A DNA stretch of 64,000 bases from Trypanosoma brucei (Eukaryota), in the NCBI GenBank assembly GCA_000002445.1, contig CP000069.1, positions 704,001 to 768,000 on the forward strand, read 5' to 3'. Of this stretch, positions 8,044 to 24,319 are shown one piece after another (position 1 is the stretch's first letter; each line of letters starts with the position of its first letter). The translations under genes were made by a program, and so were the position numbers. The notes under the pieces were generated by a model. The model did no database searches. It was not told the origin of the DNA and was given only the letters and a program-made list of their open reading frames with translations.

Positions 8044-8610
8044 ATGCGGGCGTGGAGTAACCTGCTAGCGTCTGTGACGATGGCGCCGTTTTTTCTGCTA
8101 TGTTTTGTCTGCTCTTGCGTTTGGCCCGCCGTAGCTACTGCGGGAAGCATTCCCCTTGCTGTTGTGGGCAGTGTCATCACTTCAGAGGATGCGTACCGTT
8201 TTATTGAGGTTCAAGCTGTCGACGGCGCCACAGGAGCTGTTGTGCGCTCCGTGCCACTGGATGCAACGCTTACCTTTACTTTTCACGGTCTACCCCAAAC
8301 TGTAAGTGAGGTGCGGCTCTTGCCGAGGCTGCCTGAGCGGCGGTTTCGTCTCGATAGCAGTGCCTCTGTACTCACTGCGCCTTTGCGGACAAAAGATGGG
8401 GATGGGTGGCTCCACTTATCCGCGATTGTAGAGCAGCAAGATGGTTCACAAGCAGGGGATCAATTACCTGGGAGTATAAGTGCGGCAGTTATGGCAGCGA
8501 TGATTATTGCCCTTGCGGTGATTGGCCGATATCGATTGTTGTCGCTGTTTCAGTTTCCGGCTCCAAAACCGCCGAAGTTGCGTCGTGTAGCTGTGGCAGT
8601 GAATCGGTAA
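8044..8610 (+). CDS. hypothetical type-I membrane protein (copy 1) with an N-terminal signal peptide and a C-terminal TM helix
   Basis: 188-aa ORF with a hydrophobic N-terminus (MAPFFLLCFVCSCVWPAVATA) and a C-terminal hydrophobic stretch (AAVMAAMIIALAVIG) followed by basic residues. Confidence 0.5.
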   Translation: MRAWSNLLASVTMAPFFLLCFVCSCVWPAVATAGSIPLAVVGSVITSEDAYRFIEVQAVDGATGAVVRSVPLDATLTFTFHGLPQTVSEVRLLPRLPERRFRLDSSASVLTAPLRTKDGDGWLHLSAIVEQQDGSQAGDQLPGSISAAVMAAMIIALAVIGRYRLLSLFQFPAPKPPKLRRVAVAVNR

Positions 8611-9017
8611 GGCGAGTTTATGGACACGTGTGTGTTCTTGACTTTTCTCACATTCGTATTGCGGTGTGCTGTTGCGAGCATTTTGCATTTTCTGGTGTTG
8701 GTGTTGGTGTTGGTGCTGGGTATAGGGGTGCTACTGCTTGTTTATATGTATGTGTGCGTGTAACTCTCACTAGCATATGAACTCGAGTACTTTCTTCCTG
8801 CCTCTGCTGCTCGTCTGTTATCATGAAGCAGGTACCTCCTAACTCCACTGAGTTTGTAATTGGGCGCATTTTAACCTTCCTGTTGCGTTGCCACTGTAAC
8901 AGCACTGTACCCCTTTCCTTCACTTCTGTGCATATGTGCGTGCCAACAACTTTCCGACGACCCGCTGTCTTGTAGAAAGTAGCAACAGGTGAGCCCGTCA
9001 CGCCTTCTCCCCTGACG

Positions 9018-9770
9018 ATGCCCGCACGTGGCTGTGCCCCTGTTGATGAGCAGATCGCTGGGACAGACACGGAAGGACGACGCTACAGGTCAGTGGAGGA
9101 GATGTGGGGACGCGAGTTGCAGGGTAACTTGTACGACGCGAAGACAGGGTGGTATGGTAAGTCTCTCCAGTACTGGGGCAGCGTTCCGGCTACCGTCAGC
9201 GGTGTACTGGGCGGTATGGATCATGTGCATGATATCGACATCCGTGATTCACGCGCTTTCATATGCTGCTTGCCGGAGCGCGGCACTACACGTGCACTTG
9301 ACTGCGGTGCCGGTATTGGTCGAATCACCAAGTCCCTTTTGTGCCACTTATACGATGTGACAGATCTTCTGGAACCGGTGGCAAGCATGCTGGAGAAGGC
9401 GAAAGAGGAACTTGAGGGGTTTCCAGTGGGCGATTTCTTTCAGTCGTCGATGGAGACAGCGAAGCTTCAACCGAAGACATACGACCTCATTGTTATTCAA
9501 TGGGCGGCGATCTATCTGACAGACGAGGACTTTGTTGCTTTCTTGGTACGCTGCAAGGAGGCACTGACACCGAAGGGGTACATATTCTTCAAGGAGAATT
9601 GCGCGTCTGACGACGAGTTCATTGTTGACAAGGAGGACAGTAGCCTGACGCGATCCGACAAGCACTACAAGCGTATATTTGCCGCTGCCGGTATTGAGGT
9701 TGTTAAGGAGGCTATGCAAGGCGATTGGCCTGATGATCTGCTGAAGGTGAAGATGTACGCACTACGCTAA
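9018..9770 (+). CDS. alpha N-terminal protein methyltransferase, NTMT1/METTL11A family (copy 1)
   Basis: Family signature GWYGKSLQYW...VSGVLGG...DIDIRDSRAF. SAM-binding motif I LDCGAGIGRITKSLL. The 250-aa length is typical of the family. Confidence 0.8.
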   Translation: MPARGCAPVDEQIAGTDTEGRRYRSVEEMWGRELQGNLYDAKTGWYGKSLQYWGSVPATVSGVLGGMDHVHDIDIRDSRAFICCLPERGTTRALDCGAGIGRITKSLLCHLYDVTDLLEPVASMLEKAKEELEGFPVGDFFQSSMETAKLQPKTYDLIVIQWAAIYLTDEDFVAFLVRCKEALTPKGYIFFKENCASDDEFIVDKEDSSLTRSDKHYKRIFAAAGIEVVKEAMQGDWPDDLLKVKMYALR

Positions 9771-10144
9771 GCAGTTGGTCCTCCCACCGGTTGTTGATGT
9801 GTTCTCACTTCTTGTTGGCGCATTGCTGTTGTCGTCACTTTGTTTTGTTGTTCTTTGCATGGTTTATTTTTTTCAATTAGAGGCCACTACCTCTGCGTTG
9901 CCATCGCTTGGCTTACCCTAACGGTGGCACTGCCAACCCTCGTACTCGTCACACGGTGGTCTTCTACCTCTGCATGAATTTTTTGTGTTATTTTTCTTAA
10001 TGTCCGACTATTTATTGTTGTTACGTCCCTTAGCTACTTTTGTGTGTGTTTAGTGTTGTTACTTTTGTAGCGGGTAAATCAATTCACGGTTATCAGGTTA
10101 AATAGGGGTAGCCATAATCAGGACTCTGGTGTGTAAAGGCGTGC

Positions 10145-10591
10145 GTGCGTAGACAGAGAGATTACATCGAGATGTCTGCACTTGCGGAGGCCGAGCGCAT
10201 GGAGCGCGAAAAAGCCCTTATGGAGGGACAGCAGCGGGTGGACATGCTCCGTGAGACGGTACGTATAATGGCGAATCGGCAAGCCGTTCTCGTCGGGACG
10301 AAGCGCCGTCTGCAAATTTCCACCGGAGAGTTGCAGCGTCTCTCTTCTGACCACTGTGTGTATGAGAGTGTGGGCCGCGTGTTTCTCCGGACACCGGTGC
10401 CGGCGTTCATAGAGAAGCAGATGGAGGCTGCAGAGAGGTGCGAGGCCGAAGAGAAGCGGCTGATGAGTGAGAAGCAGAGAGTTGTGGAGCAACTGCAGAA
10501 GGATGAAGTGCAGCTCCGTGAAGCAGCACAGCAGTACATGGCTGAAATGAGTGCCCGTCGGCAGTTACAACAGCAGCAGCAGAAACAGTAA
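10145..10591 (+). CDS. prefoldin beta-type subunit-like coiled-coil protein (copy 1)
   Basis: 148 aa, arranged as coiled coil, then a beta-hairpin segment (CVYESVGRVFLRTPVP), then coiled coil, with a Q-rich tail. The assignment rests on this architecture only. Confidence 0.45.
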   Translation: MRRQRDYIEMSALAEAERMEREKALMEGQQRVDMLRETVRIMANRQAVLVGTKRRLQISTGELQRLSSDHCVYESVGRVFLRTPVPAFIEKQMEAAERCEAEEKRLMSEKQRVVEQLQKDEVQLREAAQQYMAEMSARRQLQQQQQKQ

Positions 10592-10948
10592 CAGCTACGC
10601 TCTGCCCGCAATCGGCGTTCTAGGTATCTGCCGATATTGTGCATTTCTGTTGTCTGAGGTGTGCGCTACAGAATGTGCTGCTTTGGAGTGCGGCACCCTA
10701 TCAGCAAGGGTCCGTTCCAAGTAGTTTTGGCGTGCGTGTGTGAGTTTGACTGTGATGCATGGGACACCGTATAATTTAACGTCTCAGTCACTGGTGATTT
10801 CTAGGTCTGTTTTCATTTGTGTGTACCCTGTTTTCTGTTTCCATTCCTGTTCTGGGTACATCTTCCTCTTTTGTTTCTCAAACCCGTTATGTGAACGTGG
10901 GGAGGAAGGGAGTGTGTGGCACTCGGTCGGTTGCGTTGAAGGTGAGGT

Positions 10949-13738
10949 TTGCTTGGACCGGCGATGCTGTGCAGCGGCCGCATTATTCTCAAGAAGAAAT
11001 GGATTCCTCCACTTGGTTACCGGCCGAAGGATTTCGAGAGAAAATTGCGTTCTCCGCGTTCGTCGAAACCGTGGCGCGACCGCCGCGCGGCATCGGGTGG
11101 GCAGATTGAGGTTTCACCGAGTACCGCGGCGACGAACATTCCGCGCGGTGACCTTGTCTTTAGGCCCCCGCTCGGTATTCGTGATGTGCGACCGGGCTCT
11201 CCTTCGGCGCTTCTTCCAACCTTTGGATTTTCAGAAGAGCATCTTGCTGCGCATGCTCTTCCCGCTGCGGGGTCGCAGGTGGAAGGCGGGGATGTGTTAG
11301 CTGTAGCGGACCCACGGTCAGCATCACATCTGACGCTACCATTTGGGAGGGCACTAAACGTTAATGTTGAAGAAATCAAGACATATGAGGAGGGACCTGT
11401 GCCCATACACCTTCAGCAATTCCGGCGTAGTAGGCGGGAAGCAGCCGATTCCATCATTCTACCTCGCCATATTAACCGACTGTTCCATAAAATAATGGGT
11501 TGGTCGGAAGACCTCGTGAAAGTGGAAATGGATGAAGCCCCAACCCCAAACACAGGTGGAGTGCCCTCTGACACCGCGGCAGTGCGTGCGAAGGAAGCAC
11601 AGGAGTCTGAAGTTCCGTTGCTGAGGATGAAATACGATAACGTTGTGGACAAGATGAAGTATGGTGTTCTTCTTGACAATTATGAGAAGGACAAGTTTGC
11701 GATCGAACACCAACTTGAGATTGCTGGCGAGAAGTTCGAGCGGAAGTTCCTTGACTGGGAGGGTATGCATGTTCTCGATCAGGACCCCAGTGCGGCAGTG
11801 CGCGAGGTGCTTGAGAACAAGGCATCAATAGTAATGGAACAACCATCCTCGTTTGCCATACCTGTAGTGAATCGTGACTGCTGCCGCGGGTGTGGTGCGC
11901 TTCTGCAGGACCAAGATGAGAACTCTTTCGGGTATGTGCGGAAAGGTGATGTGGAGCGGTACATCATTGAGAAACAACAGAAAATGAGGGCGCGTGCTGA
12001 GTACGCGGATCGAATGTCTGAGCTGCAGGCGCACTGGCGGAAACATGGTCGGCGTGTGGGCGAGGAGTGGCTGGATTTTATGACCCAGGAGGAATTTGAT
12101 GCCTTTTACCGAGATAGGAACGCGCCGTTTGTATGCCACCGCTGCCACGCGCTAGAGAACCTCGGGGTGGAGGGGCGGCGTCGCATATGGTCAGCACCGG
12201 ACTTCACTGACAAGTTGCGTGCCCTTCGTGAGAAGAAATGTGTAGTGGTTCTTGTTGTTGACGTAACAGATTTTCCTGGGACTATGGTGTATGACCTCCC
12301 GGGCCTCATATCGATGAACAATGATGTGATAATTGCTGTGAATAAGATGGATTGTGTTAGGAATCGCTCCTTCAACTACCGAGGCAAGGATCGTGCGGTC
12401 GCTGCTTGCCTTGTGACCGAGCGGTACGTGAGACGGTGGGTGACTGGGATCGCCGTTCAGTTTGGACTACCACGTCACCAGATAAAGGACGTGATTCCTT
12501 TGTCTGCGAAGCGTGGTTGGAATGTAGAGGCTCTAATAGCGGCTGTGGAGGAGGCCTCCAACCTCAACCTTCGGCGACCAACAAAACCCATACCGACGTA
12601 TTTCGTTGGTGTTGCGAATGTTGGGAAGTCCTCCGTTATTAACGCCATTGCCCACAAACTGTATGTGCCTCTGCCACCCCACCCGGAGAGTCGGAAGGTA
12701 TACTACACGAAGAAGGCACCGGATGGAAGTGAGTCTGTTTTCTGGCGGTGGTACACACCTCCTAATGTGAACCAGGCGGAAATGATTGACATTCCATCTC
12801 GGCACGACAAGAAAGCCTCGAAGCTGGTAACTACCTCCTCCTTGCCTGGTACCACGGTTGACGCTGTTGCAGTGCGCGTTTCGCTGAGTAAAGGCGCGGA
12901 GAAGGGCCGTGCACATCTGTTCGACACACCCGGCCTCCTTCCGCATTGGCACCGTCACTCACCCCTGACGCTACTACAGATGCGACGCACCCTCATTCGC
13001 AAGTTCCGCAATCCTCAGTGCTTTATCCTGGTGCCTGGGAACACATTGTTTCTCGGAGGCCTCTGTGCCGTGGACGTAGTGAAAGGAACGTCGCGCGGGA
13101 TGCTTTTCATGGTTTACACGTCGCAGAAGGTACGTAACGCCATCATTAACACAGACCGGTCGGATGAGTTTTGGAGGGAACAACTTGGTCGTGCGCTTGA
13201 CCCACCCGGATCTGTGGAACAAGTTGGTGATCTTCGGCTCACGGAGTCGAGGAGCTATTTGTTTGAATGCTACCAGCGTAACCGAAAGCGGCCAAAGGCG
13301 GATATCTATTTCTGCGGACTTGGCTGGGTTGCGTTCTGTGTGAATGAGCCCGCAGATGTGGTACTGCGTGTGCGGACCTTACCGGGAGTAGTGCATGGTG
13401 TGCGCGAACCGTTGCGGTACAAGGACCTACTGGCATTTAAAGGGTGGCCGAAACTGCGGCGTCGTTTCACTTCTGCCGGTGTTCCTAATGACGAGGAGGA
13501 TGATGACAACTCCATTGCCACCGTTGTACGACTGACTGCTGGAGGTGGTGCTTGTGGGTTATCCGCTGCACCTGTGTGCGGCTCACCGGAAGAAGATGTT
13601 GATGGTCCTGCAGTACGGGTTGTTCGCAAGTCGGTCTTGCCGAAACCCATTCCGGCGTCGTCCACTCCTTTCGACGGCGTTGTTGAGGAACTGAGCCTAT
13701 CGGGACAAGCGGGAGGCGGTACGGGTGCGGGGATGTGA
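10949..13738 (+). CDS. circularly permuted GTPase of the YqeH/NOA1 family (copy 1), a likely mitochondrial ribosome-assembly factor
   Basis: N-terminal zinc knuckle CCRGCGALLQDQDENSFGY...CHRCH as in YqeH. GTPase motifs occur in permuted order: G4 NKMD, G1 GVANVGKSSVINAI, and G3 DTPGL. Confidence 0.75.
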   Translation: MLGPAMLCSGRIILKKKWIPPLGYRPKDFERKLRSPRSSKPWRDRRAASGGQIEVSPSTAATNIPRGDLVFRPPLGIRDVRPGSPSALLPTFGFSEEHLAAHALPAAGSQVEGGDVLAVADPRSASHLTLPFGRALNVNVEEIKTYEEGPVPIHLQQFRRSRREAADSIILPRHINRLFHKIMGWSEDLVKVEMDEAPTPNTGGVPSDTAAVRAKEAQESEVPLLRMKYDNVVDKMKYGVLLDNYEKDKFAIEHQLEIAGEKFERKFLDWEGMHVLDQDPSAAVREVLENKASIVMEQPSSFAIPVVNRDCCRGCGALLQDQDENSFGYVRKGDVERYIIEKQQKMRARAEYADRMSELQAHWRKHGRRVGEEWLDFMTQEEFDAFYRDRNAPFVCHRCHALENLGVEGRRRIWSAPDFTDKLRALREKKCVVVLVVDVTDFPGTMVYDLPGLISMNNDVIIAVNKMDCVRNRSFNYRGKDRAVAACLVTERYVRRWVTGIAVQFGLPRHQIKDVIPLSAKRGWNVEALIAAVEEASNLNLRRPTKPIPTYFVGVANVGKSSVINAIAHKLYVPLPPHPESRKVYYTKKAPDGSESVFWRWYTPPNVNQAEMIDIPSRHDKKASKLVTTSSLPGTTVDAVAVRVSLSKGAEKGRAHLFDTPGLLPHWHRHSPLTLLQMRRTLIRKFRNPQCFILVPGNTLFLGGLCAVDVVKGTSRGMLFMVYTSQKVRNAIINTDRSDEFWREQLGRALDPPGSVEQVGDLRLTESRSYLFECYQRNRKRPKADIYFCGLGWVAFCVNEPADVVLRVRTLPGVVHGVREPLRYKDLLAFKGWPKLRRRFTSAGVPNDEEDDDNSIATVVRLTAGGGACGLSAAPVCGSPEEDVDGPAVRVVRKSVLPKPIPASSTPFDGVVEELSLSGQAGGGTGAGM

Positions 13739-14409
13739 GTCTGGCGTGCTACCGTTTGTGCGGAGAACCGACCGACCTTTGTGGGTATAACACAATGCAC
13801 TGATGTTTGATTCATCCTTTTTCATGTTGTCCCAACCGACTTACTTGTTCCGCTCCGTTCCGTTCTGTTGCGTTGTGCTGCTGATACTGCAATTTCTTTC
13901 TCGTCGCTTTTGTTGTCAATTTTCTTTATCGTGCTGCGGTGATCTGCAATGGAGGGGTATGCCGTCGCTGGGGATAGACGTTTGCATTTACATGGATAGT
14001 GTTTTCATAGCTGTTCTACCCCTGTTTCTGGAGACGCGGCATTGCTGTTGGCGTTACTTTATATGATTAGTTTTGGTTGTGTTCTGGGGGTGGATGTGCG
14101 ATGGACGGGTGTGCTGTCTGTCACCGAAGGCCGATGCGTTTTGGTACGCCGTGACTGATGTTACTGTTATTTTTTTAAAGGTTGCGTTGAGTTTCTATCG
14201 CCTTGATGTGTGTTGTTAGTGTCTTTTATTTTTGTTGTGTCACTCTTATTTTGCTGATTACTGCTTTATAGTGTAGCAGTTGTCATTCTCGATATCCTTT
14301 CTCCTTGATCTACTTCATTACGTGTAATATTACCCTGGTGGGATAACTCTGCCCAAGGCCGATAGTTATAACGCTAACAAGAATCATCTACTTTCAGTCA
14401 TCTAAAGGT

Positions 14410-15453
14410 TTGCAAATGTCATCCGCTCCTCTGAGGGTATACGTTCAGTGTAATCCATTACTTGACGTCTCGGCTCACGTGTCCGACGAATTTTTGGTCA
14501 AGTATGGTTTGGAGCGCGGTACGGCCATCTTGTTGTCTGAGCGCCAGAAAGGAATATTCGACGATATCGAGAAAATGCCCAATGTGCGGTATGTCCCTGG
14601 TGGATCTGGCTTGAACGTGGCGCGCGTTGCGCAGTGGATGCAGCAAGCGTATAAGGGGAAGTTTGTTACATATGTTGGCTGCATTGCAGATGATCGGTAC
14701 GGCAAGGTTCTGAAGGAAGCTGCCGAGCATGAAGGAATTGTGATGGCTGTTGAGCATACGACGAAAGCAGGGAGTGGTGCGTGTGCAGTTTGTATCACCG
14801 GCAAGGAACGCACTCTTGTTGCTGATCTTGGTGCAGCAAATCACCTCTCCAGTGAGCATATGCGCTCCCCTGCTGTCGTGAGGGCGATGGATGAATCCAG
14901 AATTTTCTATTTCTCCGGTTTCACGTTGACAGTTGACGTTAATCACGTTCTTCAGGCGTGCAGAAAGGCTCGTGAGGTGGATGGACTTTTTATGATCAAC
15001 TTATCGGCCCCTTTTATTATGCAATTCTTTTCCGCGCAACTTGGGGAGGTTCTGCCCTATACTGATATAATTGTGGCCAACCGACATGAGGCAAAGGAGT
15101 TTGCCAACATGATGAAGTGGGATACGGACTGTGTCGAGGAGATTGCAAGGCGAGCAGTATCTGAGGTTCCTTACACAGGCACAAAAGGTCGTGTTGTTGT
15201 GTTCACTCGTGATATTGAACCTACTGTAATTGCAACTAAGGATGGTGTGGAGACGGTTCCTGTACCTCAGTTAGATCAGGACAAAGTAATTGACATGAAT
15301 GGTGCTGGGGATGCATTTGTGGGTGGATTTTTGAGTGCTTATGCCGTTGGTAAGGATTTGCGGCGCTGTTGCGAAACTGGCCACTACACAGCACAAGAGG
15401 TTATCCAGCAAGACGGTTGCTCGTTCCCCGAGAAGCCCAGTTTCTCTCCTTGA
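14410..15453 (+). CDS. ADK: adenosine kinase (PfkB/ribokinase family), upstream tandem copy
   Basis: N-terminal PfkB motif GGSGLNVARVAQ and C-terminal motif DMNGAGDAFVGGFL. The 347-aa length is typical. T. brucei is known to carry tandem AK genes. Confidence 0.9.
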   Translation: MQMSSAPLRVYVQCNPLLDVSAHVSDEFLVKYGLERGTAILLSERQKGIFDDIEKMPNVRYVPGGSGLNVARVAQWMQQAYKGKFVTYVGCIADDRYGKVLKEAAEHEGIVMAVEHTTKAGSGACAVCITGKERTLVADLGAANHLSSEHMRSPAVVRAMDESRIFYFSGFTLTVDVNHVLQACRKAREVDGLFMINLSAPFIMQFFSAQLGEVLPYTDIIVANRHEAKEFANMMKWDTDCVEEIARRAVSEVPYTGTKGRVVVFTRDIEPTVIATKDGVETVPVPQLDQDKVIDMNGAGDAFVGGFLSAYAVGKDLRRCCETGHYTAQEVIQQDGCSFPEKPSFSP

Positions 15454-16110
15454 TGTTTTTTCACGTAAACACTTTGTTTAAAAATGTTATGTAACATAAA
15501 ATATATGTTGGTTTTTATCTTTTTTCTTTTCGGTTTCTGGTAAGTAAAGTTTAATGGGAAATATGGCGTAAGCGATATCATATCACTTTGTCTGAGGGAA
15601 GAAAGAATGAGGTCATAAATGGCAGATGGTAACAGTGTAATATCTTGAGTTGCTATCTATATTACCTTGTTTGTTTAAAAAAGGAGTTTGAAAGTGATGA
15701 TGCTGGTTGATTCACATCGTGTTTTTTTCACACTTTCTTTATTTCCTTTATCCTTCTTTTTTTTTCATAAAAGATGATTACATCCTATATTATGAGGGTT
15801 CAATATTATTGTTTCTACTTGTTGAGTTGTTTACGCTTGTATATCTACTCGTTTATTCCCAGGTGTGTACGCAGGCGGTGAGGAGGGTTGTAAGAAAACG
15901 GTAACGTAACAATTCTAACGGTTCCACATTTTTGCCTTTTTTTTTAAAGAATATATTAGGTCATGATGTTGTGCAGTTTTTGTTGAAGAGGGACATTTAC
16001 TTTATCTTCGATTACTCTTTTGAAGCACTAACGATGTAATGACCTGCCTCGCATAACACTACACTGAGCAAACTTGCTCACGTGAAGAATAAACGAATTC
16101 TGTATTTTGA

Positions 16111-16510
16111 TTGTGTCTGTGCCGTGGACGTAGTGAAAGGAACGTCGCGCGGGATGCTTTTCATGGTTTACACGTCGCAGAAGGTACGTAACGCCATCAT
16201 TAACACAGACCGGTCGGATGAGTTTTGGAGGGAACAACTTGGTCGTGCGCTTGACCCACCCGGATCTGTGGAACAAGTTGGTGATCTTCGGCTCACGGAG
16301 TCGAGGAGCTATTTGTTTGAATGCTACCAGCGTAACCGAAAGCGGCCAAAGGCGGATATCTATTTCTGCGGACTTGGCTGGGTTGCGTTCTGTGTGAATG
16401 AGCCCGCAGATGTGGTACTGCGTGTGCGGACCTTACCGGGAGTAGTGCATGGTGTGCGCGAACCGTTGCGGTACAAGGACCTACTGGCATTTAAAGGGTG
16501 GCCGAAACTG
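16111..16510 (+). pseudogene. 400-bp internal fragment of the YqeH-like GTPase gene, a third copy of 13070-13449, sitting at the duplication junction. It is part of the chimeric ORF 16082-16582.
   Basis: The ORF 16082-16582 translation (CAVDVVKGTSRGMLFMVYTSQ...LLAFKGWPKL) is identical to GTPase residues encoded at 13070-13449. It is then fused in frame to sequence homologous to 7645 onwards. There is no start context or N-terminal domain. Confidence 0.85.
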
Positions 16511-16909
16511 CATTTATATTGTATGCATGGAAAGATGCACTTAATGTGGTTCGGTTTGTGTATTTCTAATTTGCTGCTGTAGTTGCTGACGTTTGTGGGC
16601 ACTCGATAGTATTCTGTGTTTCGTATGAGGACCCCTACGTCTCTTCTTCCTTTCTTTGGCTCACGTTATCTGTAGGTTGTGCTGTACGCTCTGCCTTGAC
16701 TGCTACTCGTATTGTTAGTCGGTTGTCGTTTTCACCCGTTACACTGCTGCCCTATATATATATATTGGCTTCGGTCCCACACTTTACTACATTATTTGTT
16801 AACCTACTGCTGTGATGCCCCTTCTATCATAGGAAAGGTATTATTAAGAAAAAGGCGTGGCGCGGGTGCCCCACTTCGTGGAAGAGAGTGGTTCTTAACG
16901 AATTAAGCT

Positions 16910-17476
16910 ATGCGGGCGTGGAGTAACCTGCTAGCGTCTGTGACGATGGCGCCGTTTTTTCTGCTATGTTTTGTCTGCTCTTGCGTTTGGCCCGCCGTAG
17001 CTACTGCGGGAAGCATTCCCCTTGCTGTTGTGGGCAGTGTCATCACTTCAGAGGATGCGTACCGTTTTATTGAGGTTCAAGCTGTCGACGGCGCCACAGG
17101 AGCTGTTGTGCGCTCCGTGCCACTGGATGCAACGCTTACCTTTACTTTTCACGGTCTACCCCAAACTGTAAGTGAGGTGCGGCTCTTGCCGAGGCTGCCT
17201 GAGCGGCGGTTTCGTCTCGATAGCAGTGCCTCTGTACTCACTGCGCCTTTGCGGACAAAAGATGGGGATGGGTGGCTCCACTTATCCGCGATTGTAGAGC
17301 AGCAAGATGGTTCACAAGCAGGGGATCAATTACCTGGGAGTATAAGTGCGGCAGTTATGGCAGCGATGATTATTGCCCTTGCGGTGATTGGCCGATATCG
17401 ATTGTTGTCGCTGTTTCAGTTTCCGGCTCCAAAACCGCCGAAGTTGCGTCGTGTAGCTGTGGCAGTGAATCGGTAA
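16910..17476 (+). CDS. hypothetical type-I membrane protein (copy 2)
   Basis: Translation identical to 8044-8610. Confidence 0.5.
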   Translation: MRAWSNLLASVTMAPFFLLCFVCSCVWPAVATAGSIPLAVVGSVITSEDAYRFIEVQAVDGATGAVVRSVPLDATLTFTFHGLPQTVSEVRLLPRLPERRFRLDSSASVLTAPLRTKDGDGWLHLSAIVEQQDGSQAGDQLPGSISAAVMAAMIIALAVIGRYRLLSLFQFPAPKPPKLRRVAVAVNR

Positions 17477-17883
17477 GGCGAGTTTATGGACACGTGTGTG
17501 TTCTTGACTTTTCTCACATTCGTATTGCGGTGTGCTGTTGCGAGCATTTTGCATTTTCTGGTGTTGGTGTTGGTGTTGGTGCTGGGTATAGGGGTGCTAC
17601 TGCTTGTTTATATGTATGTGTGCGTGTAACTCTCACTAGCATATGAACTCGAGTACTTTCTTCCTGCCTCTGCTGCTCGTCTGTTATCATGAAGCAGGTA
17701 CCTCCTAACTCCACTGAGTTTGTAATTGGGCGCATTTTAACCTTCCTGTTGCGTTGCCACTGTAACAGCACTGTACCCCTTTCCTTCACTTCTGTGCATA
17801 TGTGCGTGCCAACAACTTTCCGACGACCCGCTGTCTTGTAGAAAGTAGCAACAGGTGAGCCCGTCACGCCTTCTCCCCTGACG

Positions 17884-18636
17884 ATGCCCGCACGTGGCTG
17901 TGCCCCTGTTGATGAGCAGATCGCTGGGACAGACACGGAAGGACGACGCTACAGGTCAGTGGAGGAGATGTGGGGACGCGAGTTGCAGGGTAACTTGTAC
18001 GACGCGAAGACAGGGTGGTATGGTAAGTCTCTCCAGTACTGGGGCAGCGTTCCGGCTACCGTCAGCGGTGTACTGGGCGGTATGGATCATGTGCATGATA
18101 TCGACATCCGTGATTCACGCGCTTTCATATGCTGCTTGCCGGAGCGCGGCACTACACGTGCACTTGACTGCGGTGCCGGTATTGGTCGAATCACCAAGTC
18201 CCTTTTGTGCCACTTATACGATGTGACAGATCTTCTGGAACCGGTGGCAAGCATGCTGGAGAAGGCGAAAGAGGAACTTGAGGGGTTTCCAGTGGGCGAT
18301 TTCTTTCAGTCGTCGATGGAGACAGCGAAGCTTCAACCGAAGACATACGACCTCATTGTTATTCAATGGGCGGCGATCTATCTGACAGACGAGGACTTTG
18401 TTGCTTTCTTGGTACGCTGCAAGGAGGCACTGACACCGAAGGGGTACATATTCTTCAAGGAGAATTGCGCGTCTGACGACGAGTTCATTGTTGACAAGGA
18501 GGACAGTAGCCTGACGCGATCCGACAAGCACTACAAGCGTATATTTGCCGCTGCCGGTATTGAGGTTGTTAAGGAGGCTATGCAAGGCGATTGGCCTGAT
18601 GATCTGCTGAAGGTGAAGATGTACGCACTACGCTAA
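17884..18636 (+). CDS. alpha N-terminal protein methyltransferase NTMT1 family (copy 2)
   Basis: Translation identical to 9018-9770. Confidence 0.8.
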   Translation: MPARGCAPVDEQIAGTDTEGRRYRSVEEMWGRELQGNLYDAKTGWYGKSLQYWGSVPATVSGVLGGMDHVHDIDIRDSRAFICCLPERGTTRALDCGAGIGRITKSLLCHLYDVTDLLEPVASMLEKAKEELEGFPVGDFFQSSMETAKLQPKTYDLIVIQWAAIYLTDEDFVAFLVRCKEALTPKGYIFFKENCASDDEFIVDKEDSSLTRSDKHYKRIFAAAGIEVVKEAMQGDWPDDLLKVKMYALR

Positions 18637-19010
18637 GCAGTTGGTCCTCCCACCGGTTGTTGATGTGTTCTCACTTCTTGTTGGCGCATTGCTGTTGTCG
18701 TCACTTTGTTTTGTTGTTCTTTGCATGGTTTATTTTTTTCAATTAGAGGCCACTACCTCTGCGTTGCCATCGCTTGGCTTACCCTAACGGTGGCACTGCC
18801 AACCCTCGTACTCGTCACACGGTGGTCTTCTACCTCTGCATGAATTTTTTGTGTTATTTTTCTTAATGTCCGACTATTTATTGTTGTTACGTCCCTTAGC
18901 TACTTTTGTGTGTGTTTAGTGTTGTTACTTTTGTAGCGGGTAAATCAATTCACGGTTATCAGGTTAAATAGGGGTAGCCATAATCAGGACTCTGGTGTGT
19001 AAAGGCGTGC

Positions 19011-19457
19011 GTGCGTAGACAGAGAGATTACATCGAGATGTCTGCACTTGCGGAGGCCGAGCGCATGGAGCGCGAAAAAGCCCTTATGGAGGGACAGCAG
19101 CGGGTGGACATGCTCCGTGAGACGGTACGTATAATGGCGAATCGGCAAGCCGTTCTCGTCGGGACGAAGCGCCGTCTGCAAATTTCCACCGGAGAGTTGC
19201 AGCGTCTCTCTTCTGACCACTGTGTGTATGAGAGTGTGGGCCGCGTGTTTCTCCGGACACCGGTGCCGGCGTTCATAGAGAAGCAGATGGAGGCTGCAGA
19301 GAGGTGCGAGGCCGAAGAGAAGCGGCTGATGAGTGAGAAGCAGAGAGTTGTGGAGCAACTGCAGAAGGATGAAGTGCAGCTCCGTGAAGCAGCACAGCAG
19401 TACATGGCTGAAATGAGTGCCCGTCGGCAGTTACAACAGCAGCAGCAGAAACAGTAA
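19011..19457 (+). CDS. prefoldin beta-like protein (copy 2)
   Basis: Translation identical to 10145-10591. Confidence 0.45.
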   Translation: MRRQRDYIEMSALAEAERMEREKALMEGQQRVDMLRETVRIMANRQAVLVGTKRRLQISTGELQRLSSDHCVYESVGRVFLRTPVPAFIEKQMEAAERCEAEEKRLMSEKQRVVEQLQKDEVQLREAAQQYMAEMSARRQLQQQQQKQ

Positions 19458-19814
19458 CAGCTACGCTCTGCCCGCAATCGGCGTTCTAGGTATCTGCCGA
19501 TATTGTGCATTTCTGTTGTCTGAGGTGTGCGCTACAGAATGTGCTGCTTTGGAGTGCGGCACCCTATCAGCAAGGGTCCGTTCCAAGTAGTTTTGGCGTG
19601 CGTGTGTGAGTTTGACTGTGATGCATGGGACACCGTATAATTTAACGTCTCAGTCACTGGTGATTTCTAGGTCTGTTTTCATTTGTGTGTACCCTGTTTT
19701 CTGTTTCCATTCCTGTTCTGGGTACATCTTCCTCTTTTGTTTCTCAAACCCGTTATGTGAACGTGGGGAGGAAGGGAGTGTGTGGCACTCGGTCGGTTGC
19801 GTTGAAGGTGAGGT

Positions 19815-22604
19815 TTGCTTGGACCGGCGATGCTGTGCAGCGGCCGCATTATTCTCAAGAAGAAATGGATTCCTCCACTTGGTTACCGGCCGAAGGATTT
19901 CGAGAGAAAATTGCGTTCTCCGCGTTCGTCGAAACCGTGGCGCGACCGCCGCGCGGCATCGGGTGGGCAGATTGAGGTTTCACCGAGTACCGCGGCGACG
20001 AACATTCCGCGCGGTGACCTTGTCTTTAGGCCCCCGCTCGGTATTCGTGATGTGCGACCGGGCTCTCCTTCGGCGCTTCTTCCAACCTTTGGATTTTCAG
20101 AAGAGCATCTTGCTGCGCATGCTCTTCCCGCTGCGGGGTCGCAGGTGGAAGGCGGGGATGTGTTAGCTGTAGCGGACCCACGGTCAGCATCACATCTGAC
20201 GCTACCATTTGGGAGGGCACTAAACGTTAATGTTGAAGAAATCAAGACATATGAGGAGGGACCTGTGCCCATACACCTTCAGCAATTCCGGCGTAGTAGG
20301 CGGGAAGCAGCCGATTCCATCATTCTACCTCGCCATATTAACCGACTGTTCCATAAAATAATGGGTTGGTCGGAAGACCTCGTGAAAGTGGAAATGGATG
20401 AAGCCCCAACCCCAAACACAGGTGGAGTGCCCTCTGACACCGCGGCAGTGCGTGCGAAGGAAGCACAGGAGTCTGAAGTTCCGTTGCTGAGGATGAAATA
20501 CGATAACGTTGTGGACAAGATGAAGTATGGTGTTCTTCTTGACAATTATGAGAAGGACAAGTTTGCGATCGAACACCAACTTGAGATTGCTGGCGAGAAG
20601 TTCGAGCGGAAGTTCCTTGACTGGGAGGGTATGCATGTTCTCGATCAGGACCCCAGTGCGGCAGTGCGCGAGGTGCTTGAGAACAAGGCATCAATAGTAA
20701 TGGAACAACCATCCTCGTTTGCCATACCTGTAGTGAATCGTGACTGCTGCCGCGGGTGTGGTGCGCTTCTGCAGGACCAAGATGAGAACTCTTTCGGGTA
20801 TGTGCGGAAAGGTGATGTGGAGCGGTACATCATTGAGAAACAACAGAAAATGAGGGCGCGTGCTGAGTACGCGGATCGAATGTCTGAGCTGCAGGCGCAC
20901 TGGCGGAAACATGGTCGGCGTGTGGGCGAGGAGTGGCTGGATTTTATGACCCAGGAGGAATTTGATGCCTTTTACCGAGATAGGAACGCGCCGTTTGTAT
21001 GCCACCGCTGCCACGCGCTAGAGAACCTCGGGGTGGAGGGGCGGCGTCGCATATGGTCAGCACCGGACTTCACTGACAAGTTGCGTGCCCTTCGTGAGAA
21101 GAAATGTGTAGTGGTTCTTGTTGTTGACGTAACAGATTTTCCTGGGACTATGGTGTATGACCTCCCGGGCCTCATATCGATGAACAATGATGTGATAATT
21201 GCTGTGAATAAGATGGATTGTGTTAGGAATCGCTCCTTCAACTACCGAGGCAAGGATCGTGCGGTCGCTGCTTGCCTTGTGACCGAGCGGTACGTGAGAC
21301 GGTGGGTGACTGGGATCGCCGTTCAGTTTGGACTACCACGTCACCAGATAAAGGACGTGATTCCTTTGTCTGCGAAGCGTGGTTGGAATGTAGAGGCTCT
21401 AATAGCGGCTGTGGAGGAGGCCTCCAACCTCAACCTTCGGCGACCAACAAAACCCATACCGACGTATTTCGTTGGTGTTGCGAATGTTGGGAAGTCCTCC
21501 GTTATTAACGCCATTGCCCACAAACTGTATGTGCCTCTGCCACCCCACCCGGAGAGTCGGAAGGTATACTACACGAAGAAGGCACCGGATGGAAGTGAGT
21601 CTGTTTTCTGGCGGTGGTACACACCTCCTAATGTGAACCAGGCGGAAATGATTGACATTCCATCTCGGCACGACAAGAAAGCCTCGAAGCTGGTAACTAC
21701 CTCCTCCTTGCCTGGTACCACGGTTGACGCTGTTGCAGTGCGCGTTTCGCTGAGTAAAGGCGCGGAGAAGGGCCGTGCACATCTGTTCGACACACCCGGC
21801 CTCCTTCCGCATTGGCACCGTCACTCACCCCTGACGCTACTACAGATGCGACGCACCCTCATTCGCAAGTTCCGCAATCCTCAGTGCTTTATCCTGGTGC
21901 CTGGGAACACATTGTTTCTCGGAGGCCTCTGTGCCGTGGACGTAGTGAAAGGAACGTCGCGCGGGATGCTTTTCATGGTTTACACGTCGCAGAAGGTACG
22001 TAACGCCATCATTAACACAGACCGGTCGGATGAGTTTTGGAGGGAACAACTTGGTCGTGCGCTTGACCCACCCGGATCTGTGGAACAAGTTGGTGATCTT
22101 CGGCTCACGGAGTCGAGGAGCTATTTGTTTGAATGCTACCAGCGTAACCGAAAGCGGCCAAAGGCGGATATCTATTTCTGCGGACTTGGCTGGGTTGCGT
22201 TCTGTGTGAATGAGCCCGCAGATGTGGTACTGCGTGTGCGGACCTTACCGGGAGTAGTGCATGGTGTGCGCGAACCGTTGCGGTACAAGGACCTACTGGC
22301 ATTTAAAGGGTGGCCGAAACTGCGGCGTCGTTTCACTTCTGCCGGTGTTCCTAATGACGAGGAGGATGATGACAACTCCATTGCCACCGTTGTACGACTG
22401 ACTGCTGGAGGTGGTGCTTGTGGGTTATCCGCTGCACCTGTGTGCGGCTCACCGGAAGAAGATGTTGATGGTCCTGCAGTACGGGTTGTTCGCAAGTCGG
22501 TCTTGCCGAAACCCATTCCGGCGTCGTCCACTCCTTTCGACGGCGTTGTTGAGGAACTGAGCCTATCGGGACAAGCGGGAGGCGGTACGGGTGCGGGGAT
22601 GTGA
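19815..22604 (+). CDS. YqeH/NOA1-type circularly permuted GTPase (copy 2)
   Basis: Translation identical to 10949-13738. Confidence 0.75.
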   Translation: MLGPAMLCSGRIILKKKWIPPLGYRPKDFERKLRSPRSSKPWRDRRAASGGQIEVSPSTAATNIPRGDLVFRPPLGIRDVRPGSPSALLPTFGFSEEHLAAHALPAAGSQVEGGDVLAVADPRSASHLTLPFGRALNVNVEEIKTYEEGPVPIHLQQFRRSRREAADSIILPRHINRLFHKIMGWSEDLVKVEMDEAPTPNTGGVPSDTAAVRAKEAQESEVPLLRMKYDNVVDKMKYGVLLDNYEKDKFAIEHQLEIAGEKFERKFLDWEGMHVLDQDPSAAVREVLENKASIVMEQPSSFAIPVVNRDCCRGCGALLQDQDENSFGYVRKGDVERYIIEKQQKMRARAEYADRMSELQAHWRKHGRRVGEEWLDFMTQEEFDAFYRDRNAPFVCHRCHALENLGVEGRRRIWSAPDFTDKLRALREKKCVVVLVVDVTDFPGTMVYDLPGLISMNNDVIIAVNKMDCVRNRSFNYRGKDRAVAACLVTERYVRRWVTGIAVQFGLPRHQIKDVIPLSAKRGWNVEALIAAVEEASNLNLRRPTKPIPTYFVGVANVGKSSVINAIAHKLYVPLPPHPESRKVYYTKKAPDGSESVFWRWYTPPNVNQAEMIDIPSRHDKKASKLVTTSSLPGTTVDAVAVRVSLSKGAEKGRAHLFDTPGLLPHWHRHSPLTLLQMRRTLIRKFRNPQCFILVPGNTLFLGGLCAVDVVKGTSRGMLFMVYTSQKVRNAIINTDRSDEFWREQLGRALDPPGSVEQVGDLRLTESRSYLFECYQRNRKRPKADIYFCGLGWVAFCVNEPADVVLRVRTLPGVVHGVREPLRYKDLLAFKGWPKLRRRFTSAGVPNDEEDDDNSIATVVRLTAGGGACGLSAAPVCGSPEEDVDGPAVRVVRKSVLPKPIPASSTPFDGVVEELSLSGQAGGGTGAGM

Positions 22605-23275
22605 GTCTGGCGTGCTACCGTTTGTGCGGAGAACCGACCGACCTTTGTGGGTATAACACAATGCACTGATGTTTGATTCATCCTTTTTCATGTTGTCCCA
22701 ACCGACTTACTTGTTCCGCTCCGTTCCGTTCTGTTGCGTTGTGCTGCTGATACTGCAATTTCTTTCTCGTCGCTTTTGTTGTCAATTTTCTTTATCGTGC
22801 TGCGGTGATCTGCAATGGAGGGGTATGCCGTCGCTGGGGATAGACGTTTGCATTTACATGGATAGTGTTTTCATAGCTGTTCTACCCCTGTTTCTGGAGA
22901 CGCGGCATTGCTGTTGGCGTTACTTTATATGATTAGTTTTGGTTGTGTTCTGGGGGTGGATGTGCGATGGACGGGTGTGCTGTCTGTCACCGAAGGCCGA
23001 TGCGTTTTGGTACGCCGTGACTGATGTTACTGTTATTTTTTTAAAGGTTGCGTTGAGTTTCTATCGCCTTGATGTGTGTTGTTAGTGTCTTTTATTTTTG
23101 TTGTGTCACTCTTATTTTGCTGATTACTGCTTTATAGTGTAGCAGTTGTCATTCTCGATATCCTTTCTCCTTGATCTACTTCATTACGTGTAATATTACC
23201 CTGGTGGGATAACTCTGCCCAAGGCCGATAGTTATAACGCTAACAAGAATCATCTACTTTCAGTCATCTAAAGGT

Positions 23276-24319
23276 TTGCAAATGTCATCCGCTCCTCTGA
23301 GGGTATACGTTCAGTGTAATCCATTACTTGACGTCTCGGCTCACGTGTCCGACGAATTTTTGGTCAAGTATGGTTTGGAGCGCGGTACGGCCATCTTGTT
23401 GTCTGAGCGCCAGAAAGGAATATTCGACGATATCGAGAAAATGCCCAATGTGCGGTATGTCCCTGGTGGATCTGGCTTGAACGTGGCGCGCGTTGCGCAG
23501 TGGATGCAGCAAGCGTATAAGGGGAAGTTTGTTACATATGTTGGCTGCATTGCAGATGATCGGTACGGCAAGGTTCTGAAGGAAGCTGCCGAGCATGAAG
23601 GAATTGTGATGGCTGTTGAGCATACGACGAAAGCAGGGAGTGGTGCGTGTGCAGTTTGTATCACCGGCAAGGAACGCACTCTTGTTGCTGATCTTGGTGC
23701 AGCAAATCACCTCTCCAGTGAGCATATGCGCTCCCCTGCTGTCGTGAGGGCGATGGATGAATCCAGAATTTTCTATTTCTCCGGTTTCACGTTGACAGTT
23801 GACGTTAATCACGTTCTTCAGGCGTGCAGAAAGGCTCGTGAGGTGGATGGACTTTTTATGATCAACTTATCGGCCCCTTTTATTATGCAATTCTTTTCCG
23901 CGCAACTTGGGGAGGTTCTGCCCTATACTGATATAATTGTGGCCAACCGACATGAGGCAAAGGAGTTTGCCAACATGATGAAGTGGGATACGGACTGTGT
24001 CGAGGAGATTGCAAGGCGAGCAGTATCTGAGGTTCCTTACACAGGCACAAAAGGTCGTGTTGTTGTGTTCACTCGTGATATTGAATCAACAGTGCTTGCA
24101 ACTAAGGATGGTGTGGAGACGGTTCCTGTACCTCAGTTAGATCAGGACAAAGTAATTGACATGAATGGTGCTGGGGATGCATTTATGGGTGGATTTTTGA
24201 GTGCTTATGCCGTTGGTAAGGATTTGCGGCGCTGTTGCGAAACTGGCCACTACACAGCACAAGAGGTTATCCAGCGTGACGGTTGCTCGTTCCCCGAGAA
24301 GCCCAGTTTCTCTCCTTGA
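23276..24319 (+). CDS. ADK: adenosine kinase, downstream tandem copy. It differs from copy 1 at four C-terminal residues: P to S, I to L, V to M, and Q to R.
   Basis: Same motifs as 14410-15453, with DMNGAGDAFMGGFL. The first nucleotide difference is at 24086, and the 3' flank is unrelated to that of copy 1. Confidence 0.9.
   Translation: MQMSSAPLRVYVQCNPLLDVSAHVSDEFLVKYGLERGTAILLSERQKGIFDDIEKMPNVRYVPGGSGLNVARVAQWMQQAYKGKFVTYVGCIADDRYGKVLKEAAEHEGIVMAVEHTTKAGSGACAVCITGKERTLVADLGAANHLSSEHMRSPAVVRAMDESRIFYFSGFTLTVDVNHVLQACRKAREVDGLFMINLSAPFIMQFFSAQLGEVLPYTDIIVANRHEAKEFANMMKWDTDCVEEIARRAVSEVPYTGTKGRVVVFTRDIESTVLATKDGVETVPVPQLDQDKVIDMNGAGDAFMGGFLSAYAVGKDLRRCCETGHYTAQEVIQRDGCSFPEKPSFSP

What the first reader, a model, noticed from the sequence alone, without database searches (positions are those of the whole stretch)
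16082..16582. Third copy of a 400-bp internal GTPase fragment inserted exactly at the duplication junction, creating a chimeric ORF
Between the ADK-1 3' flank (unique, 15454-16110) and the start of duplicate copy 2 (16511) lies a 400-bp segment identical to 13070-13449, an internal piece of the YqeH-like GTPase. That makes three copies of this piece, at 13070, 16111 and 21936. The fragment ends precisely where homology to 7645 begins, with breakpoint aaactg|catttat. It reads through in frame as a 166-aa chimeric ORF (16082-16582). So this is not a clean unit|unit tandem junction. It looks like a templated insertion at a breakpoint, as in replication-based (MMBIR/FoSTeS-like) rearrangement, or the scar of two successive events. 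A GTPase-domain fragment carrying the G-domain C-terminal region could also be expressed as a truncated polypeptide from the polycistron.
Basis: seen in the sequence. Interest (0 to 1): 0.65.

Follow-up and report, generated by a model that had tools for sequence, protein, structure and literature searches.

The report
Third GTPase fragment at duplication junction
A perfect 396-bp third copy of an internal piece of a mitochondrial-type GTPase gene really sits at the joint between two copies of a duplicated gene block on Trypanosoma brucei chromosome 6, but it is most likely the leftover overlap of successive ordinary duplications (or a repeat mis-ordering in the reference assembly), not clear proof of an exotic one-step copying error.

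Summary
13062-13457 = 16116-16511 = 21928-22323 (396 bp, 100% identical). The large repeat is 7644-15461 = 16510-24326. The ORF 16082-16582 is open.

The window is T. b. brucei TREU927 chromosome 6. "ADK" is adenosine kinase (AK). The GTPase is the NOA1/YqeH-like homologue. The fragment's ATG-started ORF (16154-16582, 142 aa) is already annotated as hypothetical protein Q584S5. The fragment encodes the C-terminal YqeH-like domain, not the G domain.

Both junctions also occur in T. b. gambiense DAL972, and one each in two T. equiperdum assemblies. There they sit in other contexts (GTPase-F-block start; AK1 flank-F-GTPase 3' end). No other assembly shows TREU927's AK1 flank-F-block start. Swapping the two segments between the three F copies gives a sequence with identical k-mers up to k=397, so the order is fragile to both assembly and recombination.

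Copies evolve in concert, so 100% identity does not date the event. The AK 3' tails carry old differences shared across subspecies.

Best reading (~0.55): successive duplications whose extents overlap by 396 bp. A single template-switch event remains possible (~0.3). Interest is low to moderate.

The parts
7644..15461 (+). Copy 1 of the large repeat: T. brucei-specific 188-aa gene (8044-8610), N-terminal methyltransferase (9018-9770), prefoldin subunit, NOA1/YqeH-like GTPase (10964-13738), adenosine kinase AK1 (14416-15453)
16510..24326 (+). Copy 2 of the large repeat (period 8,866 bp): same genes, GTPase 19830-22604, AK2 23282-24319
13062..13457 (+). F1: source copy of the 396-bp segment inside GTPase copy 1 (codons 700-831, YqeH-like C-terminal domain)
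16116..16511 (+). F2: the third copy, an island between U and the start of copy 2; 100% identical to F1 and F3
21928..22323 (+). F3: the same segment inside GTPase copy 2
15462..16115 (+). U: 654-bp unique sequence after AK1 (its 3' flank). It has no match elsewhere in the window, in the AK2 flank R, or in the outgroup loci. Origin unknown.
16115..16116 (+). Junction B (U | position 13062-equivalent). Also present in DAL972 and T. equiperdum OVI.
16510..16511 (+). Junction C: 'GC' shared by the end of F and the start of the block (13457-equivalent | 7644-equivalent). Also present in DAL972 and IVM-t1.
16154..16582 (+). Annotated 142-aa CDS (AAZ11793.1 / XP_845352.1 / Q584S5, 'hypothetical protein, conserved'; probably Tb927.6.2310 by accession order). 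It consists of 119 aa of GTPase C-terminal domain plus a 23-aa tail, HLYCMHGKMHLMWFGLCISNLLL, read from the block's upstream intergenic DNA. The GTG-started ORF 16082-16582 is the mechanical version.
15220..15461 (+). Diverged right edge of the repeat (AK 3' tail): 8 mismatches and 1 indel against 24086-24326, giving the 4 amino-acid differences between AK1 and AK2. All 8 are shared with DAL972.
15733..15773 (+). 34-nt polypyrimidine tract followed by AG (15772-15773) inside U: a plausible spliced-leader acceptor for whatever lies downstream of U (inferred from sequence only)
16640..16675 (+). Polypyrimidine tract and AG upstream of the 188-aa gene of copy 2. It would set the polyadenylation region of an F2 transcript close to its stop codon (inferred).

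Best explanation
Notation: y = 7644-13061, F = 13062-13457, x = 13458-16115 (GTPase 3' end, AK1, U), z = GTPase 3' end, AK2 and the downstream flank R. The window reads L-y-F-x-F-y-F-z.

The 396-bp piece is the stretch shared by two different duplication units at the T. brucei chromosome-6 adenosine kinase locus.
- One unit is the AK unit. Its left breakpoint lies inside the GTPase at 13062 and it created junction B (U|13062).
- The other unit carries the upstream four-gene block. Its right breakpoint lies inside the GTPase at 13457 and it created junction C (13457|7644, 2-bp GC microhomology).
The two extents overlap by 396 bp, so that piece exists three times.

Simplest path to the TREU927 order (inferred):
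1. An older AK-unit duplication gives L-y-F-x-F-z.
2. A plain tandem duplication of the 8,866-bp block 7644-16509 follows.
3. One 3,054-bp AK unit is lost by homologous recombination.
An alternative route is an unequal crossover in F between haplotypes that each carry only one of the duplications.

The three identical F copies, and the long near-identical repeats around them, are then kept identical by gene conversion. They also let the intervening segments be deleted, expanded or re-ordered. The F2 ORF is a by-product: a C-terminal-domain fragment with a 23-aa read-through tail. It is probably transcribed, because everything in the polycistron is, but is most likely without function.

Shown: the anatomy, the sharing of junctions among subspecies, concerted evolution, the old AK tail divergence, and a single-copy ancestral state. 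Inferred: the order and number of events, and the lack of function.
For: Anatomy.
Identity of the locus: the window is TREU927 chromosome 6, AK1/AK2 are Q584S6/Q584S0 and the fragment ORF is Q584S5. PMC2724708 reports the tandem AK genes differing in 4 of 345 aa. A bioRxiv preprint (10.64898/2026.08.02.742330) names Tb927.6.2290 as the NOA1 homologue.
Ancestral state: T. vivax and T. cruzi have one block and one AK after the GTPase. T. congolense has a single AK cluster.
Junctions in other genomes: DAL972 has GTPase-F|y in one ungapped contig and U|F-GTPase 3' end-AK1 in another. OVI has U|F-GTPase 3' end-AK2-R. IVM-t1 has L-y-F|y-F-z with no AK1 or U. So each junction is seen as the joint of a plain tandem unit.
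Different history of the AK part: the 8 tail differences are shared by TREU927 and DAL972, and derived residues lie on both paralogs (AK1 Q332, AK2 M302).
Concerted evolution: strain-specific SNPs and indels are shared by both copies within each strain, in the AK part and in the upstream block.
Precedent: homologous crossover between near-identical repeats deleting genes on T. brucei chromosome 6 is documented at another locus (PMC4689576).
Against: The TREU927 order needs at least three ordinary events under this model, whereas one complex event would produce it directly.
The AK-unit junction itself carries a 654-bp filler (U) of unknown origin, so at least one of the 'ordinary' events was not clean.
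The comparator assemblies are weak for a 396-bp repeat. OVI is 2x150-bp Velvet/SSAKE. IVM-t1 is mostly 2x300-bp MiSeq with only 7,508 PacBio reads. DAL972 has gaps in the region. All arrangements share one repeat graph, so their contexts could be arbitrary traversals.
F2 shows no divergence, and there are no strain-specific sites in F that could show it has been homogenised rather than being young.
The edge-asymmetry argument (diverged right edge, perfect left edge) applies equally under either model.
Confidence: 0.55

Rival explanations
1. One-step replicative template switching (MMBIR/FoSTeS-like). While copying a single-copy locus, the nascent strand left the template 8 bp after the AK stop codon (15461). 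It copied 654 bp from an unknown source (U), jumped to 13062 and copied 396 bp, then jumped back to 7644 (GC microhomology) and continued. This produced a tandem duplication of 7644-15461 with a two-part filler. Other strains' arrangements are then deletion derivatives through F x F recombination, or misassemblies.
For: The finished TREU927 sequence has exactly this anatomy: one duplicated unit with identical end points in both copies, and a filler made of a nearby templated piece in direct orientation plus another insert. There is 2-bp microhomology at junction C. Outgroups have a single AK, so no earlier AK duplication is required. It is the most parsimonious route to the TREU927 order. The conflicting assemblies are technically weak.
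Against: No other assembly shows the U-F-y adjacency. DAL972, whose Sanger reads can span 396 bp, shows both alternative contexts. The mismatch cluster next to junction A is old, shared between subspecies and derived on both copies, so it is not a mutational footprint of error-prone synthesis. No microhomology is seen on the testable side of junction B. The source of U was not found.
Confidence: 0.3
2. Repeat-order error in the reference. This concerns the order only, not the origin, so it is compatible with the best explanation. On this view the U-F-y adjacency does not exist in the TREU927 genome. The true order is L-y-F-y-F-x-F-z: one GTPase truncated at junction C, one full GTPase, AK1, U, a GTPase 3' fragment, then AK2. 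The two segments between the three F copies were swapped during finishing.
For: Swapping x and y gives a sequence of the same length with identical k-mer content up to k=397. DAL972, OVI and IVM-t1 show only the contexts expected from the swapped order or its one-unit contractions. The swapped order needs only two simple tandem duplications.
Against: TREU927 chromosome 6 is a finished Sanger sequence. As far as I know, its reads of 600-800 bp can span 396 bp plus flanks, which should have exposed a wrong join. The comparators are drafts. The DAL972 contig U-F-x-F is itself a collapsed path, so that assembly is not error-free here.
Confidence: 0.3
3. The fragment is a functional gene: a stand-alone YqeH-like C-terminal domain protein of 142 aa, expressed from the polycistron and retained by selection. 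Selection would then explain its perfect conservation.
For: The ORF is open and annotated. It matches PF21516 just above the curated cut-off (28.0 vs 27.7 bits). A strong polypyrimidine tract and AG lie about 380 nt upstream of its ATG.
Against: It lacks the G domain and the N-terminal part. Its 23-aa tail is read from intergenic DNA. The ORF differs among assemblies (142 aa in TREU927, 212 aa in DAL972 and OVI, absent as a separate ORF in IVM-t1). No assembled transcript contig in the collection carries it. Perfect identity is explained by concerted evolution. A database search of the 166-aa ORF returned only fragments of the orthologous GTPase from other kinetoplastids.
Confidence: 0.05

Closest known systems
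Trypanosomatid tandem gene arrays and segmental duplications under concerted evolution (Jackson 2007, PMC1855330; T. b. gambiense genome paper, PMC2854126)
   Same: Head-to-tail repeats lie inside one polycistron. Copies are homogenised within a strain while flanks and 3' UTRs differ. Copy number and content vary between subspecies.
   Different: Two units of different extent overlap here, so a 396-bp intragenic piece is triplicated and one copy stands alone at a joint. Neither paper mentions this locus.
Complex tandem duplications with templated insertions at the breakpoint (FoSTeS/MMBIR; human CNV literature, from my own knowledge)
   Same: A nearby templated segment in direct orientation sits exactly at the duplication joint, with 2-bp microhomology at one switch and a second insert of other origin.
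   Different: Co-origin of the junctions is not shown. The nearby mismatch cluster is old paralog divergence, not a synthesis footprint. Other strains show the junctions in simple contexts.
Known tandem adenosine kinase genes of T. brucei (Tb927.6.2300 / Tb927.6.2360; Q584S6 / Q584S0; PMC2724708)
   Same: These are the same two genes with the same 4 amino-acid differences. AK2 here carries the peptide DIESTVLATK that the paper assigns to Q584S0.
   Different: In the papers I could search, AK is called simply a 'tandem gene'. None describes the five intervening ORFs, the GTPase fragment or the structural differences among subspecies.
Repeat-mediated deletion by homologous crossover on T. brucei chromosome 6 (AdoMetDC locus, PMC4689576)
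   Same: Near-identical direct repeats flanking unique genes act as substrates for deletion.
   Different: It is a different locus, with longer repeats (4.8 kb). Here the deletions and re-ordering are inferred from assemblies, not observed experimentally.

Membership tests
MMBIR/FoSTeS-type complex duplication junction | The inserted segment at the joint is templated from nearby sequence | tested here: met
   16116-16511 is 100% identical to 13062-13457, 3 kb upstream, in direct orientation
MMBIR/FoSTeS-type complex duplication junction | Microhomology at every template switch | tested here: inconclusive
   Junction C has 2 bp (GC). Junction B has none on the only side that can be compared. 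Junction A and the source of U cannot be examined because the source of U is unknown.
MMBIR/FoSTeS-type complex duplication junction | All junctions arose in one event, so they always occur together and in the same order in carriers | tested here: inconclusive
   DAL972, OVI and IVM-t1 assemblies show junctions B and C in other contexts, and IVM-t1 shows C without B. However, these assemblies cannot reliably resolve a 396-bp repeat.
MMBIR/FoSTeS-type complex duplication junction | Excess of new point mutations next to the junctions on the newly synthesised copy | tested here: not met
   The only mismatch cluster (15220-15461) is shared by TREU927 and DAL972 and has derived states on both paralogs. 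There are no mismatches next to junctions B or C.
Trypanosomatid tandem array under concerted evolution | Direct head-to-tail repeats on the coding strand of one polycistron | tested here: met
   All ORFs with family matches are on the + strand. The repeat period is 8,866 bp and the AK unit is 3,054 bp.
Trypanosomatid tandem array under concerted evolution | Strain-specific variants are shared by the copies within a strain | tested here: met
   Positions 13963, 14052, 14122, 14275 and 14520, and 7768, 7887-7890, 8092, 8693-8698, 8931 and 9222
Trypanosomatid tandem array under concerted evolution | Duplication is lineage-specific relative to outgroups | tested here: met
   T. vivax and T. cruzi loci have a single block and a single AK. 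T. congolense has a single AK cluster.
YqeH/NOA1 circularly permuted GTPase (for the F2 ORF) | G domain with GTP-binding motifs | tested here: not met
   The ORF matches only PF21516 (C-terminal domain). In the full protein, the G-domain matches lie at aa 422-689, outside F (aa 700-831).
Assembly artefact (repeat permutation) | An alternative order with the same length and the same short-read content exists | tested here: met
   The swapped arrangement has identical k-mers up to k=397
Assembly artefact (repeat permutation) | Reads or clones from the same strain contradict the published order | not testable with these tools
   No TREU927 reads are accessible. The TREU927 record is not in the contig index.

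The most novel reading that the evidence does not exclude
The structure is a genuine one-step template-switching product (15461 -> unknown 654-bp source -> 13062-13457 -> 7644). It would be fixed before the split of T. brucei subspecies and since kept perfect by gene conversion. That would make it a clean, datable footprint of MMBIR-like replication restart creating a multigene duplication in the core of a trypanosome chromosome. The simpler arrangements seen in other strains would then be F-mediated deletion derivatives that change AK and NOA1 gene dosage.
Probability: 0.3. Interest if true: 0.45.

Novelty: new member of a known kind. Interest (0 to 1): 0.25.

Why it matters
Scientifically this is a small point. 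It is one more complex joint in a genome full of tandem and segmental duplications, and the ORF is already in the annotation.

It has some practical weight, for three reasons.
- The locus holds adenosine kinase, the enzyme that activates adenosine-analogue trypanocides and a recurrent hit in resistance screens.
- It also holds the NOA1-like mitoribosome assembly GTPase.
- Depending on the true order, a strain has either two full GTPase genes plus a fragment, or one truncated and one full gene. AK copy number appears to differ among assemblies.

Anyone doing knock-outs, copy-number calling or read mapping on Tb927.6.2290-2360 should know two things. Three perfect 396-bp repeats and 7.6 kb of perfect duplication make the reference order unverifiable with short reads. 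The repeats are also likely substrates for deletion.

Tried and rejected
1. Old independent pseudogene: rejected, because F2 is 100% identical to F1 and F3. Identity also cannot date the event, because concerted evolution is demonstrated.
2. Retroposed or mobile-element-borne fragment: no poly(A), no target-site duplication, and no repeat-element similarity in the window.
3. Non-coding RNA in U, F or the junction: no Rfam hit in 7000-26000.
4. U as a diverged copy of the AK2 flank R, or as an ancestral 3' UTR recognisable in outgroups: only low-complexity matches.
5. Error-prone synthesis as the cause of the AK-tail mismatch cluster: rejected.
6. Finding the junction ORFs in more strains. The 166-aa ORF search gave only distant kinetoplastid GTPase fragments. 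Exact look-ups of AK2, the 924-aa GTPase and the 142-aa ORF found no indexed contig. Only DAL972, OVI and IVM-t1 were reachable.
7. Logan contigs carrying the GTPase (ERR7929156-164) run straight through F. However, they have transcript-like, recurrent ends, so they are probably RNA-seq assemblies and say nothing about the DNA junctions.
8. Literature. No searchable paper mentions Tb927.6.2310-2350 or this junction. The tandem-array and gambiense genome papers do not cover the locus. The Luscher 2007 AK paper is not held.
9. The chromosome-6 deletion in PMC4689576 is a different locus, Tb927.6.4400-4460.

Full report
1. THE OBSERVATION

A self-comparison of the window gives one large direct repeat, 7644-15461 = 16510-24326 (7,818 bp, 99.885%). 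It also gives a 396-bp segment present three times at 100% identity: 13062-13457, 16116-16511 and 21928-22323.

The two large copies are perfectly identical over 7644-15219. All 8 mismatches and the single indel lie in the last 242 bp, 15220-15461.

Between the copies lie 654 bp of unique sequence (U, 15462-16115) and then the 396-bp segment (F2). The last two bases of F2, 'GC' (16510-16511), are also the first two bases of copy 2. That is a 2-bp microhomology, aaact[gc]atttat. At the U|F2 joint no microhomology is visible on the side that can be compared.

ORF 16082-16582 (GTG start, 166 aa) is open and reads F2 in the GTPase frame.

2. WHAT THE SEQUENCE IS

The 142-aa ATG-started version of the ORF (16154-16582) is an exact match to AAZ11793.1 / XP_845352.1 / UniProt Q584S5, 'hypothetical protein, conserved', of T. 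brucei brucei TREU927, on a 1,618,915-bp record. The window is therefore TREU927 chromosome 6, and the chimeric ORF is already an annotated gene. By accession order, between AK1 (AAZ11792) and the 188-aa gene (AAZ11794), it is probably Tb927.6.2310. That assignment is inferred.

'ADK' is adenosine kinase (PfkB). The two copies are Q584S6 and Q584S0, the known tandem AK genes Tb927.6.2300/2360, which differ in 4 of 345 residues. The Q584S0-specific peptide DIESTVLATK is in the downstream copy here.

The GTPase is the YqeH-like protein that a 2026 preprint calls the NOA1 homologue, Tb927.6.2290.

F covers codons 700-831 of the 924-aa protein. This is the YqeH-like C-terminal domain (PF21516), not the G domain, whose matches lie at aa 422-689. 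The 'chimeric' part of the annotated ORF is only a 23-aa tail read from the intergenic DNA upstream of the 188-aa gene.

3. THE ANCESTRAL STATE

In T. vivax and T. cruzi the locus holds one copy of the block (kinase ... prefoldin - GTPase) and one AK downstream. T. congolense has a single AK cluster. The duplications are therefore specific to the T. brucei group.

4. OTHER T. BRUCEI-GROUP GENOMES

Notation: y = 7644-13061, F = 13062-13457, x = 13458-16115 (GTPase 3' end, AK1, U), z = GTPase 3' end, AK2, flank R. The window reads L-y-F-x-F-y-F-z.

- T. b. gambiense DAL972 (L001) contains both junctions at the same base pairs, in three contigs separated by N runs. One contig reads y-F|y, a full-length 5' GTPase running into junction C and annotated as an 854-aa protein. 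Another reads U|F-GTPase 3' end-AK1-U|F....
- T. equiperdum OVI (L002) reads ...y [N10] U|F-GTPase 3' end-AK2-R.
- T. equiperdum IVM-t1 (L003) reads L-y-F|y-F-z, with no AK1, no U and no junction B.

Junction C is thus shared by three genomes and junction B by three. Both junctions predate the split of the subspecies. Only TREU927 shows the U-F-y adjacency that makes F2 look like an isolated insert.

5. HOW MUCH THESE COMPARISONS CAN BEAR

With three identical F copies, the two segments between them can be exchanged. The swapped order L-y-F-y-F-x-F-z has the same length as the window and identical k-mer content up to k=397. No read shorter than 398 bp can tell the two orders apart, and every arrangement shares one assembly graph.

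- OVI was assembled from 2x150-bp reads with Velvet and SSAKE.
- IVM-t1 was assembled from 2x300-bp reads plus only 7,508 PacBio reads, with chromosomes built against TREU927.
- DAL972 is a Sanger whole-genome draft. Its reads could span F, but it has gaps here, and one contig is a collapsed circular path.
- TREU927 is the finished sequence and the most trustworthy of the four.

I therefore put the probability that U-F-y is real in TREU927 at about 0.65. The comparator contexts are suggestive, not decisive.

6. DATING AND CONCERTED EVOLUTION

The eight differences in the AK 3' tail are all shared by TREU927 and DAL972. Against outgroups, the derived residues fall on both paralogs (AK1 Q332, AK2 M302). 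This is old, two-sided paralog divergence. It is not a footprint of error-prone synthesis at a recent junction.

Upstream of position 15220, strain-specific variants are shared by both copies within each strain. This holds in the AK part (13963, 14052, 14122, 14275, 14520) and in the four-gene block (7768, 7887-7890, 8092, 8693-8698, 8931, 9222). The copies therefore evolve in concert. F itself has no strain-specific site, so whether F2 has been homogenised cannot be shown.

7. MECHANISM

The best-supported reading (about 0.55) is that successive ordinary events made F triplicated.
- An AK-unit duplication had its left breakpoint at 13062 (junction B, with U between the units).
- A duplication carrying the upstream block had its right breakpoint at 13457 (junction C, GC microhomology).
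- The extents overlap by 396 bp.

The swapped order needs just these two events. The TREU927 order needs one more step. That step could be a tandem duplication of the 8,866-bp block 7644-16509 followed by loss of one 3,054-bp AK unit. It could instead be an unequal crossover in F between haplotypes carrying one duplication each.

The one-step template-switch model (about 0.3) produces the TREU927 order directly and cannot be excluded. The 654-bp U is of unknown origin, which means at least one junction is not simple under any model.

A reference mis-ordering (about 0.3) is a separate question about the order, not the origin.

A functional stand-alone C-terminal-domain protein is unlikely (about 0.05). 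A 34-nt polypyrimidine tract with AG at 15772 could give the ORF a spliced-leader site, and polycistronic transcription guarantees that it is transcribed.

8. COMPARISON WITH WHAT IS KNOWN, AND VERDICT

The closest known things are three:
- trypanosomatid tandem arrays and segmental duplications under gene conversion (PMC1855330, PMC2854126);
- the published tandem AK genes (PMC2724708);
- FoSTeS/MMBIR junctions from the human CNV literature (my own knowledge).

For the last, one defining feature is met (templated insert), two are inconclusive (microhomology at all switches; single origin of all junctions), and one is not met (mutation excess on the new copy).

No searchable paper describes this junction. 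It is a real, correctly spotted structure in a reference genome. It is ordinary in kind and modest in interest. Its main practical consequence is that gene content and order across Tb927.6.2290-2360 cannot be trusted from short reads and probably vary among strains.

Noticed in passing
window 654-1241 (within ORF 537-2921, + strand): About six near-perfect 87-bp (29-codon) tandem repeats sit inside a 794-aa ORF and encode a G/R/D/Q-rich unit. The T. equiperdum OVI contig aligns to several registers of the array, so copy number may differ between strains.
   Followed up: partly
window 15220-15461 vs 24086-24326: All differences between the two 7.8-kb copies are packed into the last 242 bp. Five of them fall in four consecutive AK codons (CCT ACT GTA ATT vs TCA ACA GTG CTT). 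They are conserved between TREU927 and DAL972, as if the two AK isoforms are kept apart while everything upstream is homogenised.
   Followed up: yes
L002 (T. equiperdum OVI) AK gene, window-equivalent 15220-15411: The single assembled OVI AK is a mosaic. It is AK1-like at 15220-15229 but AK2-like at 15319-15411, and it is followed by the AK2 flank. This is either a real conversion tract or a collapsed short-read consensus.
   Followed up: no
L003 (T. equiperdum IVM-t1) 15399-16523: The only AK gene in this assembly is called as 374 aa, with a frameshifted C-terminus (…VIQRTVARSPRSP…). This is probably a one-base indel error at window-equivalent 15411. AK1 and U are absent from the locus as assembled.
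   Followed up: partly
window 15462-16115: The 654-bp AK1 flank (U) has no detectable relative in the window, in the AK2 flank or in the outgroup loci. Because outgroups have one AK, either U or the start of the AK2 flank must be a later acquisition.
   Followed up: partly
L005-L014 (Logan contigs from ERR7929156-164), window-equivalents 5188-9862 and 10053-14218: Contigs from different runs end at nearly the same positions (about 9859-9862 and 14212-14218) and start near 10053-10065. These look like mRNA processing sites, which suggests the runs are RNA-seq assemblies that bridge neighbouring genes of the polycistron.
   Followed up: no
L016/L017 (T. cruzi) and L015 (T. vivax) vs window 9770-14416: Synteny differs outside the duplication. 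T. cruzi has a gene of about 706 aa between the methyltransferase and prefoldin genes, and T. vivax a gene of about 715 aa upstream of prefoldin at the matching position (no methyltransferase gene is called in that locus). T. cruzi also has amastin genes and an epimerase gene between the GTPase and AK. None of these is called at the corresponding places in the T. brucei window.
   Followed up: no
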